Positions 18,597-32,073 are shown, numbered from the stretch's first letter. The stretch is 64,000 nt of DNA from Minisyncoccota bacterium (GCA_051306005.1 JBPPMJ010000003.1:249396-313395); one strand, 5' to 3'. The notes: generated by a model not told the origin, from the sequence alone. Numbers and translations: made by a program.

Positions 18597-20240
18597 TCAA
18601 TAGGTCAGGCATCCTTGTGGAAAAGTGGCACTTGGTTCAGGCAGGTCAGTGATCTCGAATGTAGCACCAAGCGTGCCGAAAGGAATCAAATCGTTGTCTT
18701 CTTCCAACCTGTATTCGTTGATGAAAAGGTGATTGAATCCGACAGGTATTGTTTTTTGTTTCCCTCTCATATAACATCCGCGGTATCCGTATTCTGCCGA
18801 AAGTACATAGTACATTGATTTGACGTGATGACTTTCTCCGGAAATAAGTATTGGAGTCGTCGGTACGAATTTTTGATTGGCTGTTTTGGCGATCGCTCTT
18901 AATTGTCCGAGTGTCACCTTTGCTTCGGTGCCAAACCGTAGATCACGACTGCTTTCCTCTGCTGATACTTGAGAGACTGCCAGTTCACGGAGATATTTCG
19001 TGGTTGCTTGAAGGTTGAGAAGAATCAAAGCGGTACCGATAAATATTGCGGTATATTTCAGCCGTGGTTGGTGGCTGGTGTTTAGAATACGTTCAATGGC
19101 GAGACCGAAAAATATGAAAAGAGGCGGTATGAGACCGAGATAGAAACGAGTTTCTATCTCATACGCCACCAGTATCGTGACAAGAAAGAAACCACCAAAC
19201 CATAGCCCGATGAATGAGAGCGCCTTTTTCTGACGCGGAACCACGATGGATTTCCAGTGGCGATAGTTTGAGATAATTATAAAACTGAATAAGATCATAC
19301 TTGCAATGGAATAGGGGAGTGCTTCTTGGCATTCTTGGTCACATTTAACAGAAAGACCACGCGTCAGTATCATGTCGGTGTTTTGTTGTCCGGTAGTGAT
19401 GAGCCAGATGATGCGACTTCCCTGCTGATATGCGCGGATCGTTTTTTCGTACCAAGCGTGCTTGGTATCTTGATATTTCTCGCTAGTAGTTGCTGAGAGA
19501 AACATCTTTGTGTTAGATCCATTTGTTTGCCACTCATAGACAAAGAGTGGGGCTTGGAGGGTTATTACTATCATCATGGAAATAATAATTTCTCTAAGAC
19601 GAAGTTCTTTTGAAAAAATTTGAAAGAGTATTAGTCCTATGCCGAGGCCGAGTATCGCCACCATATGTAGCTGTGCAATGATACCTAAGGATATGGCAGC
19701 TGCGATGAGAAGCCATCGTCGTTCGTTACCATTTTTCTCTATGGCACTAAGAAAAAACCAAGAAAACATAGTTGTGAAGAACGGCAGACTGTTTGGGTTC
19801 CATGCGAAACGGGAAAATGTTACCAACAAGAGAGAAATACTTGCCATTGTCGTAAGCCACAAAGACACGGGGACGGAAAGGAATCGCCGAAGAAGCAAAA
19901 AAAGGAATGGTATGGTAAGAATACCGAATAGTAGATCCGGATAGGCGAAGCTTTCCGGCGTACCGCCGAACAGTTTACCTGAAACATACTGGAAATAATA
20001 GGAAATCGGTCCGAGTCGAAACCCTGTACTGCCAGCTTCTGAACCAAGGAGTGGCAATGATATGATACCGTTAATCATCGCCTGTTCCATGATAAGTGCG
20101 TCACGTGCCTGGTCAGATTTGAAAACAAGCCAATCGCTATGGTGTATGGTCCGTAATCCGATACCGACAAGAGAGATGGCAATGAGAACGAGAAAGGAAT
20201 ATTTCACGCGCCATTTTTCCATATAATTTTTGATGGACAT
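18597..20240 (-). CDS. GT-C fold membrane glycosyltransferase, ArnT/PMT_2-like (subfamily A)
   Basis: It has more than 10 TM helices. The first extracytoplasmic loop carries DQARDALIMEQ…LPLLGSEAGSTGFRLGP. Later it has FSRFAWNPNSLPFF. A large C-terminal soluble domain follows. Confidence 0.75.
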   Translation of the reverse strand: MSIKNYMEKWRVKYSFLVLIAISLVGIGLRTIHHSDWLVFKSDQARDALIMEQAMINGIISLPLLGSEAGSTGFRLGPISYYFQYVSGKLFGGTPESFAYPDLLFGILTIPFLFLLLRRFLSVPVSLWLTTMASISLLLVTFSRFAWNPNSLPFFTTMFSWFFLSAIEKNGNERRWLLIAAAISLGIIAQLHMVAILGLGIGLILFQIFSKELRLREIIISMMIVITLQAPLFVYEWQTNGSNTKMFLSATTSEKYQDTKHAWYEKTIRAYQQGSRIIWLITTGQQNTDMILTRGLSVKCDQECQEALPYSIASMILFSFIIISNYRHWKSIVVPRQKKALSFIGLWFGGFFLVTILVAYEIETRFYLGLIPPLFIFFGLAIERILNTSHQPRLKYTAIFIGTALILLNLQATTKYLRELAVSQVSAEESSRDLRFGTEAKVTLGQLRAIAKTANQKFVPTTPILISGESHHVKSMYYVLSAEYGYRGCYMRGKQKTIPVGFNHLFINEYRLEEDNDLIPFGTLGATFEITDLPEPSATFPQGCLTY

Positions 20241-20295
20241 ATTGTTATTTCGCTACTATCTGAGCACGCGTAAAAAAAGAAACGCCAGTCAGAAT

Positions 20296-30524: not shown

Positions 30525-30546
30525 TTATTCATCAATTGACATAAAT

Positions 30547-32073
30547 ATGAAAAAATCAATCATGTACAAAGTACTTTTCCTTATTTTTGTACTTGGCGCT
30601 TTGTTGCGCTGGAGCTTTTTAGGCAATAATTCTTTTGTGTCTGATGAATTTTTGGATATCAATTCCAGTTATGGGTATGCCAAGACTGGTGAATGGCGTG
30701 CTTGGGACTTTAATTTTGATAAACCATCAGAAGTAAATCTCAATGTTTTGCGTGATGAACGAGCTTCGTTGTACAAATGGCAGGTGGCGCAACTTTTCAA
30801 ATTTCTCCCTCCCACCGAAACAGTGGCTCGTTCCGTCAGTGTTTTGTGGGGCATCTTGTCAATAGGGGCGGTTTTCTGGTCCTCCTTGATACTGACACAA
30901 CGCCGGGAAATTGCCCTTCTTTCGGCTCTTCTCTCTGCGATTTCCATAAGCGCTCTTGTGTTCAGTCGGACGCTACGGATGTACGCGATGTTCTTTCCAT
31001 TGTATCTCACCAGTGCCACTGCATTCTTTCTTGCTTTGGAACGAAGGTATGCTGGAAATACCAGCTTCCTGAAAACAGCGCAAGAAAAAATCGGCATCCA
31101 TATACCGTATGCTTTTTTTGGAAGCGTACTGTTTATCCTTTCACTTTTGACTCATCAATTAACTGGAACACTCGTGTTCGTGATTGGCATATATCTTGCC
31201 ATTCGGGCTAGGCAAGAATACCGCTCGCGTCATACTTGGAAGACTAAATATGGCACTTTGTTGCTGATGGGAATCTTAGGAATAATAGGTGTTGCCCTTT
31301 TTCTTCCCCGTTACTTTGCTACTTTTTCGGCAGGTATCGTTTTCTTCGAAAATCATTATAGTTATATCGGCCATGCATTGCGAGACTTCGCGCATCCGCT
31401 CTTGGCTGTGTTGTTGATGGTGCTAGGTACCTGGTGGATTGCACGCCGTGAACAGCGTTCCAAGGAAGCATTGTGGATTGCCTTATCTTTTGGGATACCG
31501 GTGGTACTAGCAGTATGGTTTTGGAGTCGTAATGTTGGCGCGCAGTATATCTATTTTGCTCAATCATTTGCGATGATCCTGACAGCAGGGGGTATTTTTG
31601 GGGTATGGCGTTTGATATGTGAAAAATGGAACATTCATAACACCAAGATGACACTTTTGGTACTTGTTGTACTTTTTATGCTTGTGCCAAATTTCAGCTA
31701 TTTTTTGCAAGAAAACAATACATATCATGAGACTTCATCTGGCAGTAATCCGAATTATCACAAAGTATTTAGTTATTTCAAGAAAAATAAATTAGATTCT
31801 GATGTACTTATCACACGCAATGGACGTAATTATTACTGGAGTAAAGCGCAAGTGCCAGTATATGACTTGGGTGATGAAGTGTCGCGCACTCGGCTGTCAC
31901 AGGCTGATATTGAAAAACTGATGAGCGAGCACGCCAGTGGCTGGGTTATTCTTTCCGACAATGATTACACCTATGTCAGCAAGGGTGTCAAAGAGTTCTT
32001 GAATAAAAATTTAGTTCGTGTCAGCAATGAACAAGTACGTGGTTCCATAGACGTTTTCACTTGGGGGCATTGA
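30547..32073 (+). CDS. GT-C fold membrane glycosyltransferase, ArnT/PMT-like (subfamily C)
   Basis: An N-terminal TM helix is followed by SFVSDEFLDINSSYGYAKTGEW, a D-E motif loop. It has about 11 TM helices and a C-terminal soluble domain. Confidence 0.6.
   Translation: MKKSIMYKVLFLIFVLGALLRWSFLGNNSFVSDEFLDINSSYGYAKTGEWRAWDFNFDKPSEVNLNVLRDERASLYKWQVAQLFKFLPPTETVARSVSVLWGILSIGAVFWSSLILTQRREIALLSALLSAISISALVFSRTLRMYAMFFPLYLTSATAFFLALERRYAGNTSFLKTAQEKIGIHIPYAFFGSVLFILSLLTHQLTGTLVFVIGIYLAIRARQEYRSRHTWKTKYGTLLLMGILGIIGVALFLPRYFATFSAGIVFFENHYSYIGHALRDFAHPLLAVLLMVLGTWWIARREQRSKEALWIALSFGIPVVLAVWFWSRNVGAQYIYFAQSFAMILTAGGIFGVWRLICEKWNIHNTKMTLLVLVVLFMLVPNFSYFLQENNTYHETSSGSNPNYHKVFSYFKKNKLDSDVLITRNGRNYYWSKAQVPVYDLGDEVSRTRLSQADIEKLMSEHASGWVILSDNDYTYVSKGVKEFLNKNLVRVSNEQVRGSIDVFTWGH

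What the first reader, a model, noticed from the sequence alone, without database searches (positions are those of the whole stretch)
18597..32073. Tandem expansion of ArnT/PMT-like GT-C membrane glycosyltransferases in at least three sequence subfamilies
Five large GT-C genes are contiguous: 18597-20240, 20296-21993, 22035-23963, 23970-26339 and 26409-28202. A sixth lies at 30547-32073, and a possible seventh is the 661-aa polytopic protein at 37315-39300.

They fall into visibly distinct loop-motif classes. Class A has DQ(A/V)RD…LLGP(K/E)AGGT…RFAWNPN and occurs three times. Class B has DE(H/P)LW…(N/S)DKPGVT and occurs twice. Class C has SDEFLD and occurs once.

Each transferase has a different large extracytoplasmic C-terminal domain. 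Adjacent same-class pairs at 18597/20296 and at 22035/23970 look like local duplications that then diverged.

This pattern suggests a family of lipid-linked-donor transferases whose acceptor specificity is being diversified. The acceptors could be protein or polymer glycosylation sites on the outside of the membrane.
Basis: partly seen in the sequence, partly recalled or inferred. Interest (0 to 1): 0.75.

Follow-up and report, generated by a model that had tools for sequence, protein, structure and literature searches.

The report
Seven membrane sugar-transferase genes clustered
A tiny-genome candidate-phyla-radiation (CPR) bacterium of the Moranbacteria group carries seven genes for GT-C membrane glycosyltransferases in one cell-surface glycan locus: four are kept in nearly all relatives examined and three vary between them, which is an extension of a known kind of system rather than a new one.

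Summary
All seven ORFs exist at the stated coordinates and all seven are GT-C-type membrane glycosyltransferases.
- A1, A3, B1 and B2 match Pfam PMT_2 or PMT above the curated cut-off.
- A2 is a full-length paralogue of A3.
- The three motif classes are real, and their key residues are invariant across 26-40 homologues.

The evolutionary reading needs correcting. Paralogues share about 30% identity, while each has 40-70%-identical orthologues in other Moranbacteria. So this is old paralogy, not recent local duplication. C-terminal domains are 120-180 aa and homologous within a class.

Across 22 related loci:
- The divergent pair B2/A3 is always present, X is present wherever the contig reaches, and C is present in 14 of 18 loci.
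- A slot between a flippase-like gene and B2 holds 0-3 extra GT-Cs.
- The A2+B1 cassette co-occurs with a secreted beta-helix protein.

An ArnC/GtrB/PgfS-like polyprenyl-phosphate sugar synthase and a flippase-like protein sit beside the cluster. [quoted passage not shown] The acceptors are unknown.

The parts
18597..20240 (-). A1: class-A GT-C glycosyltransferase (547 aa). Accessory gene.
   Evidence: Pfam PMT_2 at 6.5e-09, 36.6 bits against a cut-off of 26.1. 30% identical to A3 over residues 11-493, E 8e-61. Carries the DQARD / LLGSEAGST / RFAWNPN motifs. Orthologues are found only in L006 (49% identity, same slot) and L015 (41% identity, elsewhere in the locus).
20296..21993 (-). A2: class-A GT-C glycosyltransferase (565 aa). 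Accessory gene, forming a cassette with B1.
   Evidence: No Pfam hit, but 30% identical to A3 over the full length, E 1.9e-57. Carries DQVRD / LLGPKAGGT / RFAWNPN. Orthologues at 37-65% identity in L002, L009, L016 and L023, always next to a B1 orthologue. The L002 and L016 orthologues carry an extra C-terminal metallophosphoesterase domain that is missing here.
22035..23963 (-). B1: class-B GT-C glycosyltransferase (642 aa). Accessory gene.
   Evidence: Pfam PMT at 4.1e-12, 46.6 bits against a cut-off of 22.7. 31% identical to B2 over residues 26-640, E 3e-70. Carries DEHLW and NDKPGVT. Orthologues at 45-70% identity in L002, L009, L016 and L023. A third class-B subtype at 35-36% identity occurs in L005 and L006.
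23970..26339 (-). B2: class-B GT-C glycosyltransferase (789-aa ORF, probably 761 aa) with an N-terminal extension of about 185 aa that class-B paralogue B1 lacks; my window-based hydropathy scan places 4-5 extra transmembrane helices in it. Core gene, divergently paired with A3.
   Evidence: Pfam PMT_2 at 9.7e-12 and PMT at 3.5e-10. Carries DEPLW and SDKPGVT. Present next to A3 in every locus that includes the upstream side. Called as 761 aa in L001.
26409..28202 (+). A3: class-A GT-C glycosyltransferase (597 aa). Core gene.
   Evidence: Pfam PMT_2 at 1.4e-10, 42.1 bits. The 100%-identical database entry is named 'ArnT family glycosyltransferase [Minisyncoccota bacterium]'. Orthologues at 41-67% identity in 22 loci. 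Invariant residues are listed.
28206..30524 (+). bh: membrane-anchored or secreted right-handed beta-helix protein with a C-terminal PGA_cap (CapA-like) domain. Not a GT-C. Accessory gene that co-occurs with the A2+B1 cassette.
   Evidence: Pfam Beta_helix 6e-19, NosD 2.8e-09, PGA_cap 1.3e-08. My hydropathy scan finds a single N-terminal hydrophobic helix. Present in 5 of 5 loci with A2+B1 and in 0 of 11 without.
30547..32073 (+). C: divergent GT-C glycosyltransferase (508 aa) with no Pfam match of its own. Nearly core gene.
   Evidence: AlphaFold model with pLDDT 82 and pTM 0.82. The top 16 Foldseek PDB hits are all GT-C enzymes (AglB 7e-07, PglB, STT3, ArnT with TMq 0.58, DPY19, ALG9, Pmt4, AftA), followed by a sharp drop to probability 0.2 or less. 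Distant family members hit PMT_2 above the cut-off. D33, E34, F35, L36 and D37 are invariant. Present in 14 of 18 assessable loci.
37315..39300 (-). X: GT-C-fold membrane protein (661 aa), close to the DUF6541/DUF1616 families. Core gene.
14098..15039 (+). GT2b: candidate polyprenyl-phosphate sugar synthase (ArnC/GtrB/PgfS type), the likely maker of the lipid-linked donor.
   Evidence: Full-length NCBIfam matches to ArnC (1.6e-50, residues 8-309 on profile 8-310 of 316) and PgfS (1.1e-42), both below the equivalog cut-offs. By my reading of the sequence it has two hydrophobic C-terminal stretches. It is the most conserved gene in the neighbourhood, at 73-82% identity.
17617..18570 (+). LPGtm: polytopic flippase-like membrane protein. 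Candidate flippase for the lipid-linked sugar, and the left border of the variable slot.
   Evidence: Pfam LPG_synthase_TM at 2.3e-35. TIGR00374 'flippase-like domain-containing protein' at 7.9e-18, above its cut-off. Its start overlaps the stop of GT4b by 4 bp. Syntenic in all loci.
40393..41346 (-). GT2c: second candidate polyprenyl-phosphate sugar synthase (AglJ/PpgS type), in the same gene string as X.
   Evidence: NCBIfam AglJ at 1.3e-31 and PpgS at 6.6e-24, both below cut-offs. By my reading of the sequence it has hydrophobic C-terminal stretches. It lies 3 bp from GT4d, which lies 9 bp from X.
32098..33582 (-). Wzx/MurJ-superfamily flippase, conserved directly after C.
   Evidence: Pfam Polysacc_synt at 1.7e-23, MurJ at 9e-12 and MatE. 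48-80% identical in all loci.

Best explanation
The window comes from a Moranbacteria-type (Minisyncoccota/Patescibacteria, CPR) genome. Most of it is a cell-envelope glycan locus. Embedded in that locus are seven GT-C-fold membrane glycosyltransferases from four deeply diverged subfamilies: A (three copies), B (two copies), C and X.

Proposed mechanism (inferred):
1. Membrane-anchored GT2 enzymes of the ArnC/GtrB/PgfS type (14098-15039, and probably 40393-41346) load single sugars from nucleotide sugars onto polyprenyl phosphate at the cytoplasmic face.
2. A flippase-like protein (17617-18570) and/or the Wzx-type protein (32098-33582) moves the lipid-linked sugar across the membrane.
3. Each GT-C enzyme uses the conserved acidic motif in its first extracytoplasmic loop (DQxxD, DE or DEFLD) to transfer the sugar to an acceptor outside the membrane.

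This is the known 'multi-component transmembrane glycosylation' logic. The most likely acceptor is a peptidoglycan-linked, uronic-acid-containing wall glycopolymer made by the surrounding genes. Surface proteins are the main alternative.

Gene content across relatives:
- B2, A3, C and X are a conserved core, probably giving an invariant set of modifications or assembly steps.
- A1, A2 and B1 occupy a variable slot and probably add lineage-specific decorations.
- A2 and B1 travel with the secreted beta-helix protein.

What is shown: fold and family, motif conservation, synteny, and variable gene content. What is inferred: the donor, the flipping step, the acceptor, and catalytic activity itself.
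For: GT-C identity:
- Pfam PMT_2/PMT above cut-off for A1, A3, B1 and B2.
- A2 matches A3 at 1.9e-57.
- C and X models match only GT-C enzymes among significant hits.
- Distant C-family relatives hit PMT_2.

Donor machinery nearby:
- GT2b is similar to ArnC and PgfS over its full length.
- GT2c is AglJ/PpgS-like.
- A TIGR00374 flippase-like protein is present, as is a Wzx-type protein.

Polymer context in the same window:
- Wzt ABC-transporter ATPase with a Wzt_C domain, two methyltransferases and WsaF.
- Several GT4 enzymes.
- A TuaD-like UDP-glucose dehydrogenase and a UDP-ManNAc/GlcNAc-type dehydrogenase.
- Wzy_C and an LCP (TagU-like) ligase, and a TagA/TarA-like enzyme.

Topology: K/R-rich N-terminal segments precede TM1, and the motif follows TM1 directly. 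In X the K/R-rich loops alternate so that the TDLGHH loop lies outside.

Core versus accessory: synteny in 22 loci and NJ trees with separate orthogroups.

Precedent: GT-A synthase + flippase + GT-C systems, including several GT-A/GT-C pairs per genome with different polymer acceptors (PMC8035078), and the Pgf operon with two GT-C genes for protein glycosylation (PMC5856776).
Against: - No biochemical or genetic data exist for any of these proteins or any close relative.
- Class A has Gln where PMT-type enzymes have Glu in the DE motif, so its chemistry may differ.
- No GtrA-type flippase gene lies in the window. The LPG_synthase_TM protein as flippase is an analogy only.
- GT2b, GT2c and the GT-Cs all score far below the equivalog cut-offs of any named enzyme.
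- Only two or three candidate lipid-sugar synthases are visible for seven GT-Cs.
- Class A has weak similarity to Agl23, which is 'flippase activity-associated' rather than a proven transferase.
- No class-A structure was predicted here. The class-A and class-B motif positions rest on sequence topology reasoning only.
Confidence: 0.6

Rival explanations
1. Protein O-glycosylation machinery. The GT-Cs act like PMT/Pgf/actinobacterial Pmt enzymes and transfer sugars from polyprenyl-phosphate donors to Ser/Thr of secreted or membrane proteins such as pili, S-layer proteins or adhesins. Different paralogues would recognise different protein substrates.
For: Class B hits Pfam PMT (protein O-mannosyltransferase) above the cut-off, and A3 touches the TMEM260-like family. 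GT2b is similar over its full length to PgfS, the synthase of the streptococcal Pgf protein-glycosylation operon, which has two GT-C genes. Fold matches include Pmt1/2/4, STT3, PglB, AglB and DPY19.
Against: The Pfam PMT match covers only profile positions 74-234, and the PMT C-terminal 4TMC and MIR modules are not detected. The genes are embedded among polymer-synthesis, export and LCP-ligase genes. No obvious Ser/Thr-rich acceptor protein is encoded beside them. X lacks an STT3 Pfam match, and I saw no WWDYG motif by eye.
Confidence: 0.25
2. Extracytoplasmic assembly line. The four core GT-Cs (B2, A3, C, X) act in sequence to build or extend a glycan outside the membrane from polyprenyl-phosphate monosaccharides. 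This would resemble the mycobacterial Emb/Aft/PimE enzymes or the ER-lumen ALG3/9/12/6/8/10 series, rather than each enzyme adding an optional side-chain.
For: Four non-interchangeable subfamilies are kept in fixed order in almost all of the 22 related loci examined. That pattern is expected for obligatory pathway steps. Fold hits include AftA, AftB, AftD, EmbA/B, PimE, ALG3, ALG6, ALG9 and ALG12.
Against: Fold similarity does not discriminate between GT-C functions. C is missing from 4 of 18 loci. Conventional cytoplasmic GT4/GT2 enzymes together with Wzx, Wzy and ABC-transporter routes are present and could build the polymer backbone.
Confidence: 0.12
3. Some copies are not transferases. They could be non-catalytic GT-C-fold proteins, either Agl23-like partners associated with flipping of lipid-linked glycans or degenerate paralogues.
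For: A1 and A3 give weak hits to TIGR03663 'flippase activity-associated protein Agl23' (1.2e-07 and 1.7e-05, far below the cut-off). Class A has DQ instead of DE. The window's A2 has lost the phosphoesterase domain carried by its L002 and L016 orthologues.
Against: The first-loop Asp and many other loop residues are strictly invariant across 26-40 homologues in every class. That argues for maintained active sites. All the ORFs are intact.
Confidence: 0.08
4. The proteins are polytopic transporters or permeases unrelated to glycosyltransferases.
For: One database homologue of X is labelled 'MFS transporter'. Pfam has no match for A2, C or X.
Confidence: 0.01

Closest known systems
Multi-component (three-component) transmembrane glycosylation systems of Gram-positive bacteria (CsbB/GtcA/YfhO, GtlA/GtlB, GacI/GacK/GacL, lactococcal CsdAB/CD/EF + CflA; review PMC8035078)
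   Same: A membrane-anchored GT-A/GT2 polyprenyl-phosphate sugar synthase, a candidate flippase and polytopic GT-C enzymes are encoded within a wall-polysaccharide locus. Several GT-C enzymes occur per genome, presumably with different acceptors.
   Different: Seven GT-Cs lie in one locus, against one to three pairs elsewhere. There is no YfhO Pfam match and no GtrA-type flippase gene; the candidate flippase is an LPG_synthase_TM/TIGR00374 protein. There are fewer synthases than GT-Cs. Nothing here has been tested experimentally.
ArnT (GT83) and the ArnC/ArnT lipid A aminoarabinose pathway
   Different: A3 scores 16 bits against the ArnT equivalog model, whose cut-off is 567. No ArnA/B/D/E/F homologues were seen among the genes scanned. 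From general knowledge, CPR bacteria are not known to make lipid A. No PDB sequence or profile hit to ArnT was found.
Protein O-mannosyltransferases (GT39; PMT1/2/4, actinobacterial Pmt) and the streptococcal Pgf machinery (PgfS, PgfM1, PgfM2)
   Same: Class B hits Pfam PMT and has a DE motif in the first loop. GT2b is PgfS-like. More than one GT-C per operon has a precedent in pgf.
   Different: The Pfam match is only partial. The first loop is long (about 88 aa) and carries an additional invariant DKPGVT motif. No MIR or PMT_4TMC modules are present. No protein acceptor has been identified.
Oligosaccharyltransferases STT3/AglB/PglB
   Different: There is no Pfam STT3 match. I saw no WWDYG motif by eye among the invariant columns. 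Sequence identity is 10-12%.
Pfam DUF6541 (PF20176) and DUF1616 (PF07760)
   Same: 18 of 40 X homologues hit DUF6541 and 14 of 40 hit DUF1616.
   Different: The window's own X protein scores below threshold, with only DUF1616 at E 0.022. These families have no assigned function in the library used.

Membership tests
GT-C fold glycosyltransferase superfamily | Polytopic membrane core whose structure superposes on solved GT-C enzymes | tested here: met
GT-C fold glycosyltransferase superfamily | Conserved acidic residue(s) in the first extracytoplasmic loop, directly after TM1 | tested here: met
   Class A: D40, Q41 and D44 invariant in 31 sequences. Class B: D49 and E50 invariant in 26 sequences. 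Class C: D33, E34 and D37 invariant in 40 sequences. X: D145 invariant in 40 sequences, in the loop after helix 114-137. The extracytoplasmic side is inferred from K/R distribution and was not measured.
GT-C fold glycosyltransferase superfamily | Uses a polyprenyl-(pyro)phosphate-linked sugar donor | not testable with these tools
   The only support is contextual: ArnC/PgfS-like and AglJ/PpgS-like GT2 genes lie in the locus.
Pfam PMT_2 (PF13231) / PMT (PF02366) | Whole-protein score at or above the Pfam gathering score | tested here: met
   A1 scores 36.6, A3 42.1 and B2 45.8 against the PMT_2 cut-off of 26.1. B1 scores 46.6 and B2 40.3 against the PMT cut-off of 22.7. Not met by A2, C or X themselves. 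Only 2 of 40 C-family members reach PMT_2 at E 0.006, but more distant C relatives pass the cut-off.
ArnT (lipid A 4-amino-4-deoxy-L-arabinosyltransferase, GT83) | Score above the NCBIfam equivalog cut-off (NF009784, 567 bits) | tested here: not met
   A3 scores 16.1 bits and the other proteins have no hit. No PDB sequence or profile hit to ArnT chains was found.
Eukaryote-type protein O-mannosyltransferase (GT39 PMT) | Full-length PMT domain plus the MIR and C-terminal PMT_4TMC modules | tested here: not met
   Only profile positions 74-234 of 245 are matched in B1 and B2. No MIR or PMT_4TMC hits were found. No PDB sequence or profile hit to Pmt chains was found.
STT3/AglB/PglB oligosaccharyltransferase | Pfam STT3 match and a WWDYG motif in the C-terminal domain | tested here: not met
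   No STT3 hit for any of the seven proteins. I saw no WWDYG-like string by eye among the invariant columns of X or C. The similarity is structural only.
YfhO-type GT-C (teichoic acid glycosylation) | Pfam YfhO match | tested here: not met
   No YfhO hit.
Multi-component transmembrane glycosylation system | Membrane-linked GT-A/GT2 C55-P-sugar synthase encoded with the GT-C | tested here: met
   GT2b matches ArnC at 1.6e-50 and PgfS at 1.1e-42 over its full length. By my reading of the sequence it has two hydrophobic C-terminal stretches. It is syntenic in related loci. Its activity is not tested.
Multi-component transmembrane glycosylation system | Dedicated flippase (GtrA-type or Wzx-type) | tested here: inconclusive
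   No GtrA-like gene was found. The 125-aa ORF at 36917-37294 has, by my reading of the sequence, a single hydrophobic N-terminal stretch, unlike the 3-4 helices of GtrA-type proteins. The candidates are the TIGR00374 flippase-like protein and a Wzx/MurJ-superfamily protein.
Multi-component transmembrane glycosylation system | Extracytoplasmic polymer or protein acceptor that becomes glycosylated | not testable with these tools
   Wall-polymer genes (LCP, TagA-like, Wzt, Wzy_C, uronic-acid dehydrogenases) lie in the window. No acceptor can be assigned.

The most novel reading that the evidence does not exclude
In Moranbacteria, four unrelated-looking GT-C enzymes (B2, A3, C, X) form an obligatory extracytoplasmic assembly line. 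It would build the main wall or surface glycan outside the membrane from polyprenyl-phosphate monosaccharides. A swappable accessory module (A2 + B1 + secreted beta-helix/CapA-like protein, sometimes with a phosphoesterase fused to A2) would rewrite the surface in a lineage-specific way. That would make the locus a major determinant of host attachment or phage susceptibility in these ultra-small episymbionts. Families C and X would then be new functional GT-C families.
Probability: 0.15. Interest if true: 0.65.

Novelty: new member of a known kind. Interest (0 to 1): 0.4.

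Why it matters
CPR/Patescibacteria have very small genomes and are thought to live attached to host cells. Their surface chemistry is almost unknown.

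- This organism spends about 13.5 kb on seven GT-C enzymes, inside a glycan locus that occupies most of about 45 kb. The contig is only 494 kb.
- Four of the enzymes are kept in nearly every related locus examined. Extracytoplasmic glycosylation therefore appears central to the biology of this group.
- The finding gives concrete targets. Two Pfam-invisible GT-C families (C and X) can now be annotated.
- Class A has a strictly conserved DQxxD motif instead of DE, which is worth examining mechanistically.
- The variable slot, together with the co-varying A2+B1+beta-helix module, could explain differences in surface glycans between lineages.

The kind of system itself is already known. It is not a new mechanism.

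Tried and rejected
1. Direct sequence and profile searches of A3, B1, C, X and the class-A and class-B alignments against PDB chains found nothing meaningful.
2. Profile-profile comparison (hhalign) of C vs A, X vs A, C vs X and B vs C gave no relation (probability 16% or less). B vs A gave only a weak link (probability 34%, E 4e-4), aligning IINPDS with FAWNPN. The alignments are shallow (Neff 2.4-3.5).
3. Recent tandem duplication was rejected, based on paralogue versus orthologue identities and the trees.
4. The transporter interpretation was rejected.
5. The 125-aa ORF at 36917-37294 was rejected as a GtrA-type flippase. By my reading of the sequence it has a single hydrophobic N-terminal stretch, and it has no Pfam hit.
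6. A whole-protein positive-inside count using a crude hydropathy predictor was uninformative for these proteins. Only the N-terminal segments and the first loops were used.
7. The Foldseek afdb50 library was unavailable.
8. Literature searches for CPR/Patescibacteria/Moranbacteria together with GT-C, GT39 or ArnT returned nothing relevant.
9. No tRNA genes or Rfam families occur in the window.
10. Both structure-prediction jobs went to C and X, so classes A and B were not modelled.

Full report
OBSERVATION

I label them as follows:
- A1: 18597-20240 (-)
- A2: 20296-21993 (-)
- B1: 22035-23963 (-)
- B2: 23970-26339 (-)
- A3: 26409-28202 (+)
- C: 30547-32073 (+)
- X: 37315-39300 (-)

Gaps between neighbouring genes are 6-69 bp.
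- Class A: DQ(A/V)RD, PLLG(P/S)(K/E)AG(G/S)T and RFAWNPN in A1, A2 and A3.
- Class B: DE(H/P)LW and (N/S)DKPGVT in B1 and B2.
- Class C: SDEFLD in C.

All seven are polytopic by hydropathy, with 8-14 or more hydrophobic segments and a soluble tail of 120-180 aa.

FAMILY ASSIGNMENT

Pfam places A1 and A3 in PMT_2, and B1 and B2 in PMT/PMT_2, all above the gathering scores. A2, C and X have no Pfam hit.

A2 is nevertheless a full-length paralogue of A3 (30% identity, E 1.9e-57) and of A1 (E 1.6e-24).

C and X show no blastp or hhalign relation to the others. I collected homologues for both, aligned them and predicted structures.

Results for C:
- The model has pLDDT 82 and pTM 0.82.
- Its top 16 Foldseek PDB matches are all GT-C enzymes: AglB, PglB, STT3, ArnT, DPY19, ALG9, Pmt4 and AftA.
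- Below these, the matches fall off abruptly to transporters with probability 0.3 or less.

Results for X:
- The model has pLDDT 80 and pTM 0.86.
- Foldseek gives the same picture as for C.

A profile search of the C family against 1.84 billion representative proteins found 1171 relatives. Six of the 10 distant ones that I scanned reach a Pfam gathering score (five PMT_2, one PMT). C is therefore a divergent PMT_2-type protein. Among X homologues, 18 of 40 hit DUF6541 and 14 of 40 hit DUF1616.

None of the seven approaches the equivalog cut-off of ArnT, and none hits STT3 or YfhO. Sequence and profile searches against PDB chains found nothing. The proteins are GT-C enzymes at superfamily level, in four subfamilies that are not orthologues of any characterised enzyme.

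MOTIFS AND TOPOLOGY

The motif residues are strictly conserved:
- Class A: D40, Q41, D44, G63, R141, F142, P146 and H189 across 31 sequences covering all three orthogroups.
- Class B: D49, E50, W53, R57, D77, K78, P79, G80, N178, P179 and D180 across 26 sequences.
- Class C: D33, E34, F35, L36 and D37 across 40 sequences.
- X: T144, D145, L146, G147, H148 and H149 across 40 sequences.

In A, B and C the motif follows the first hydrophobic helix directly. That helix is preceded by a short K/R-rich N-terminus.

B2 has an N-terminal extension of about 185 aa relative to B1. My hydropathy scan places 4-5 extra helices in it, depending on the threshold used. The X model has three extra N-terminal helices before the core begins at helix 114-137. 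The K/R-rich loops of X alternate so that the TDLGHH loop lies outside.

This fits the canonical extracytoplasmic first loop of GT-C enzymes, but it is inference from sequence, not measurement.

Class A has Gln where PMT-type enzymes have Glu. The weak A/B profile alignment pairs FAWNPN with IINPDS.

SOURCE AND SYNTENY

A3 is 100% identical to an NCBI protein named 'ArnT family glycosyltransferase [Minisyncoccota bacterium]' on a 494-kb contig. Its homologues are from Moranbacteria and other Patescibacteria.

A scan of one genome per species returned 22 related loci. Mapping the window's proteins onto them gives this conserved backbone:

GT2b - UDP-glucose dehydrogenase - GT4b - flippase-like protein - [variable slot] - B2(-) <> A3(+) - [bh, variable] - C - Wzx-type - Tmk - RtcB - GT4c - small single-TM protein - X - GT4d

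Presence across loci:
- The B2/A3 divergent pair is in every locus that includes the upstream side of A3.
- X is in all 8 loci that reach far enough.
- C is in 14 of 18 assessable loci. It is missing in L004, L007, L009 and L023.

The slot between the flippase-like gene and B2 holds:
- nothing in L004, L008, L011, L012, L015, L017, L018 and L020 (L015 and L017 each carry one extra GT-C elsewhere in the locus);
- one B1-like gene in L005;
- A1 plus a B1-like gene in L006;
- A2+B1 in L002, L009, L016 and L023;
- three extra class-A genes in L021;
- A1+A2+B1 in this window, which equals the maximum seen (three extra genes, as in L021).

It varies by presence or absence of old, distinct paralogues, not by recent duplication.

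AGE OF THE PARALOGUES

Within-class identities in the window are 29.9-32.7%. A1 is closer to the non-adjacent A3 (201 bits) than to its neighbour A2 (97 bits).

Each paralogue has orthologues at 37-70% identity in other genomes. Neighbour-joining trees resolve separate A1, A2, A3, B1, B1' and B2 clades, each with members from several genomes.

Any duplication predates the divergence of these lineages.

The claim that every enzyme has a different large C-terminal domain also fails within classes. The A2/A3 and B1/B2 alignments run to the C-termini, and the tails are only 120-180 aa.

FUNCTIONAL CONTEXT

GT2b (14098-15039) matches ArnC (1.6e-50) and PgfS (1.1e-42) end to end. By my reading of the sequence it has two hydrophobic C-terminal stretches, and it is the best-conserved gene in the region at 73-82% identity. 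It is a GtrB/ArnC-type polyprenyl-phosphate sugar synthase candidate.

GT2c (40393-41346) is AglJ/PpgS-like.

The protein at 17617-18570 is an LPG_synthase_TM / TIGR00374 'flippase-like' protein whose start overlaps the stop of GT4b. A Wzx/MurJ-superfamily protein follows C. No GtrA-type gene is present.

The rest of the window encodes:
- a Wzt ABC-transporter ATPase with a Wzt_C domain, two methyltransferases, WsaF, and several GT4 and GT2 enzymes;
- a TuaD-like UDP-glucose dehydrogenase and a UDP-ManNAc/GlcNAc-type dehydrogenase;
- a Wzy_C protein, an LCP (TagU-like) ligase and a TagA/TarA-like enzyme.

Together this looks like the biosynthesis of a peptidoglycan-linked, uronic-acid-containing wall glycopolymer.

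MECHANISM

The best-supported model is the known multi-component transmembrane glycosylation scheme. A GT-A synthase makes a C55-P-sugar, a flippase moves it across the membrane, and a GT-C transfers it outside (PMC8035078).

Here the scheme has an unusually large GT-C complement, split into a conserved core (B2, A3, C, X) and a variable set (A1, A2, B1).

The polymer context favours a wall glycopolymer as acceptor. Protein O-glycosylation is the main rival. It is supported by the PMT-like class B, the PgfS-like synthase and the Pgf precedent with two GT-C genes (PMC5856776).

A sequential extracytoplasmic assembly line of the mycobacterial or ALG type is a less likely but more interesting reading of the fixed four-gene core.

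Donor identity, flipping, acceptor and catalysis are all inferred. Nothing here is experimentally anchored.

COMPARISON AND NOVELTY

The kind of system is known, and NCBI already labels classes A and B as 'ArnT family' or 'GT39'. The following appear undescribed in the literature I could search (searches returned nothing relevant):
- seven GT-Cs in one CPR locus;
- the core-plus-slot architecture conserved across the 22 related (Moranbacteria-type) loci examined;
- the fold-level assignment of families C and X;
- the invariant DQxxD variant in class A;
- the co-variation of A2+B1 with the beta-helix protein.

I classify the finding as a new member of a known kind, with moderate interest for CPR surface biology.

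CAVEATS

- Topology is inferred.
- The co-occurrence statistic is not corrected for phylogeny.
- The loci come from MAGs of variable completeness.

Noticed in passing
window 20296-21993 (A2); L002 3080-5659; L016 3210-5699: The A2 orthologues in L002 (859 aa) and L016 (829 aa) carry a C-terminal extension of about 280 aa with calcineurin-like metallophosphoesterase motifs (IGIITDVH, GDFIDG, GNHE). The window's A2 ends at the first motif ('KIGIITDS...AF*'), and the L009 and L023 orthologues also lack the domain. A GT-C fused to a phosphoesterase hints at phospho-sugar or phosphodiester chemistry.
   Followed up: partly
window 28206-30524 (bh) with 20296-23963 (A2+B1): The secreted beta-helix + PGA_cap protein is present in all 5 loci that have the A2+B1 cassette (window, L002, L009, L016, L023). 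It is absent from all 11 assessable loci that lack the cassette. It lies on the other side of the B2/A3 core pair. Fisher exact p is 1/4368, not corrected for phylogeny.
   Followed up: partly
window 8001-12000: GC drops to 0.32, against about 0.42 elsewhere. The dip covers two methyltransferases, WsaF and a GT4 (8358-12740). These genes are mostly absent from the related loci, which suggests a horizontally exchanged or strain-specific glycan cassette.
   Followed up: no
window 42881-44064: A 1.2-kb stretch between the UDP-sugar dehydrogenase and the HD-domain gene has no convincing gene. It contains only unannotated ORFs of 144 and 120 aa, and no Rfam or tRNA hit.
   Followed up: no
window 33579-35699: Thymidylate kinase and the RNA ligase RtcB are embedded in the glycan locus, between the Wzx-type gene and GT4c. 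They keep that position in essentially all related loci. This is a conserved but functionally odd neighbourhood.
   Followed up: no
window 23970-26339 (B2): The mechanical ORF starts at a GTG and gives 789 aa. The gene call on an identical Logan contig is 761 aa, and my first-start-codon ORFs for the orthologues are mostly about 750-790 aa. The true start is therefore probably near 26255, which widens the divergent B2/A3 intergenic region from 69 to about 150 bp.
   Followed up: partly
L002, L003, L005, L008-L010, L013, L017, L018, L023: Several MAGs titled 'uncultured Bdellovibrionales bacterium' carry this Moranbacteria-type locus, with 41-66% identity to A3 and full synteny. Their taxonomic labels look wrong.
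   Followed up: no
window 45841-47442: A 533-aa Wzy_C (O-antigen ligase/polymerase family) protein is a further polytopic enzyme of extracytoplasmic glycan assembly, about 6.5 kb beyond X. It is followed by a GT4 and an LCP ligase.
   Followed up: no
L006 6231-8499: The B2 orthologue is split into two overlapping ORFs (259 and 635 aa), which suggests a frameshift or pseudogene, or an assembly error.
   Followed up: no
proteins P0483, P0502: Some distant relatives of the C family carry a C-terminal Laminin_G_3 / concanavalin-like lectin domain. Others have N-terminal extensions of 100-400 aa. The family's C-terminal module is evidently swappable in other lineages.
   Followed up: no
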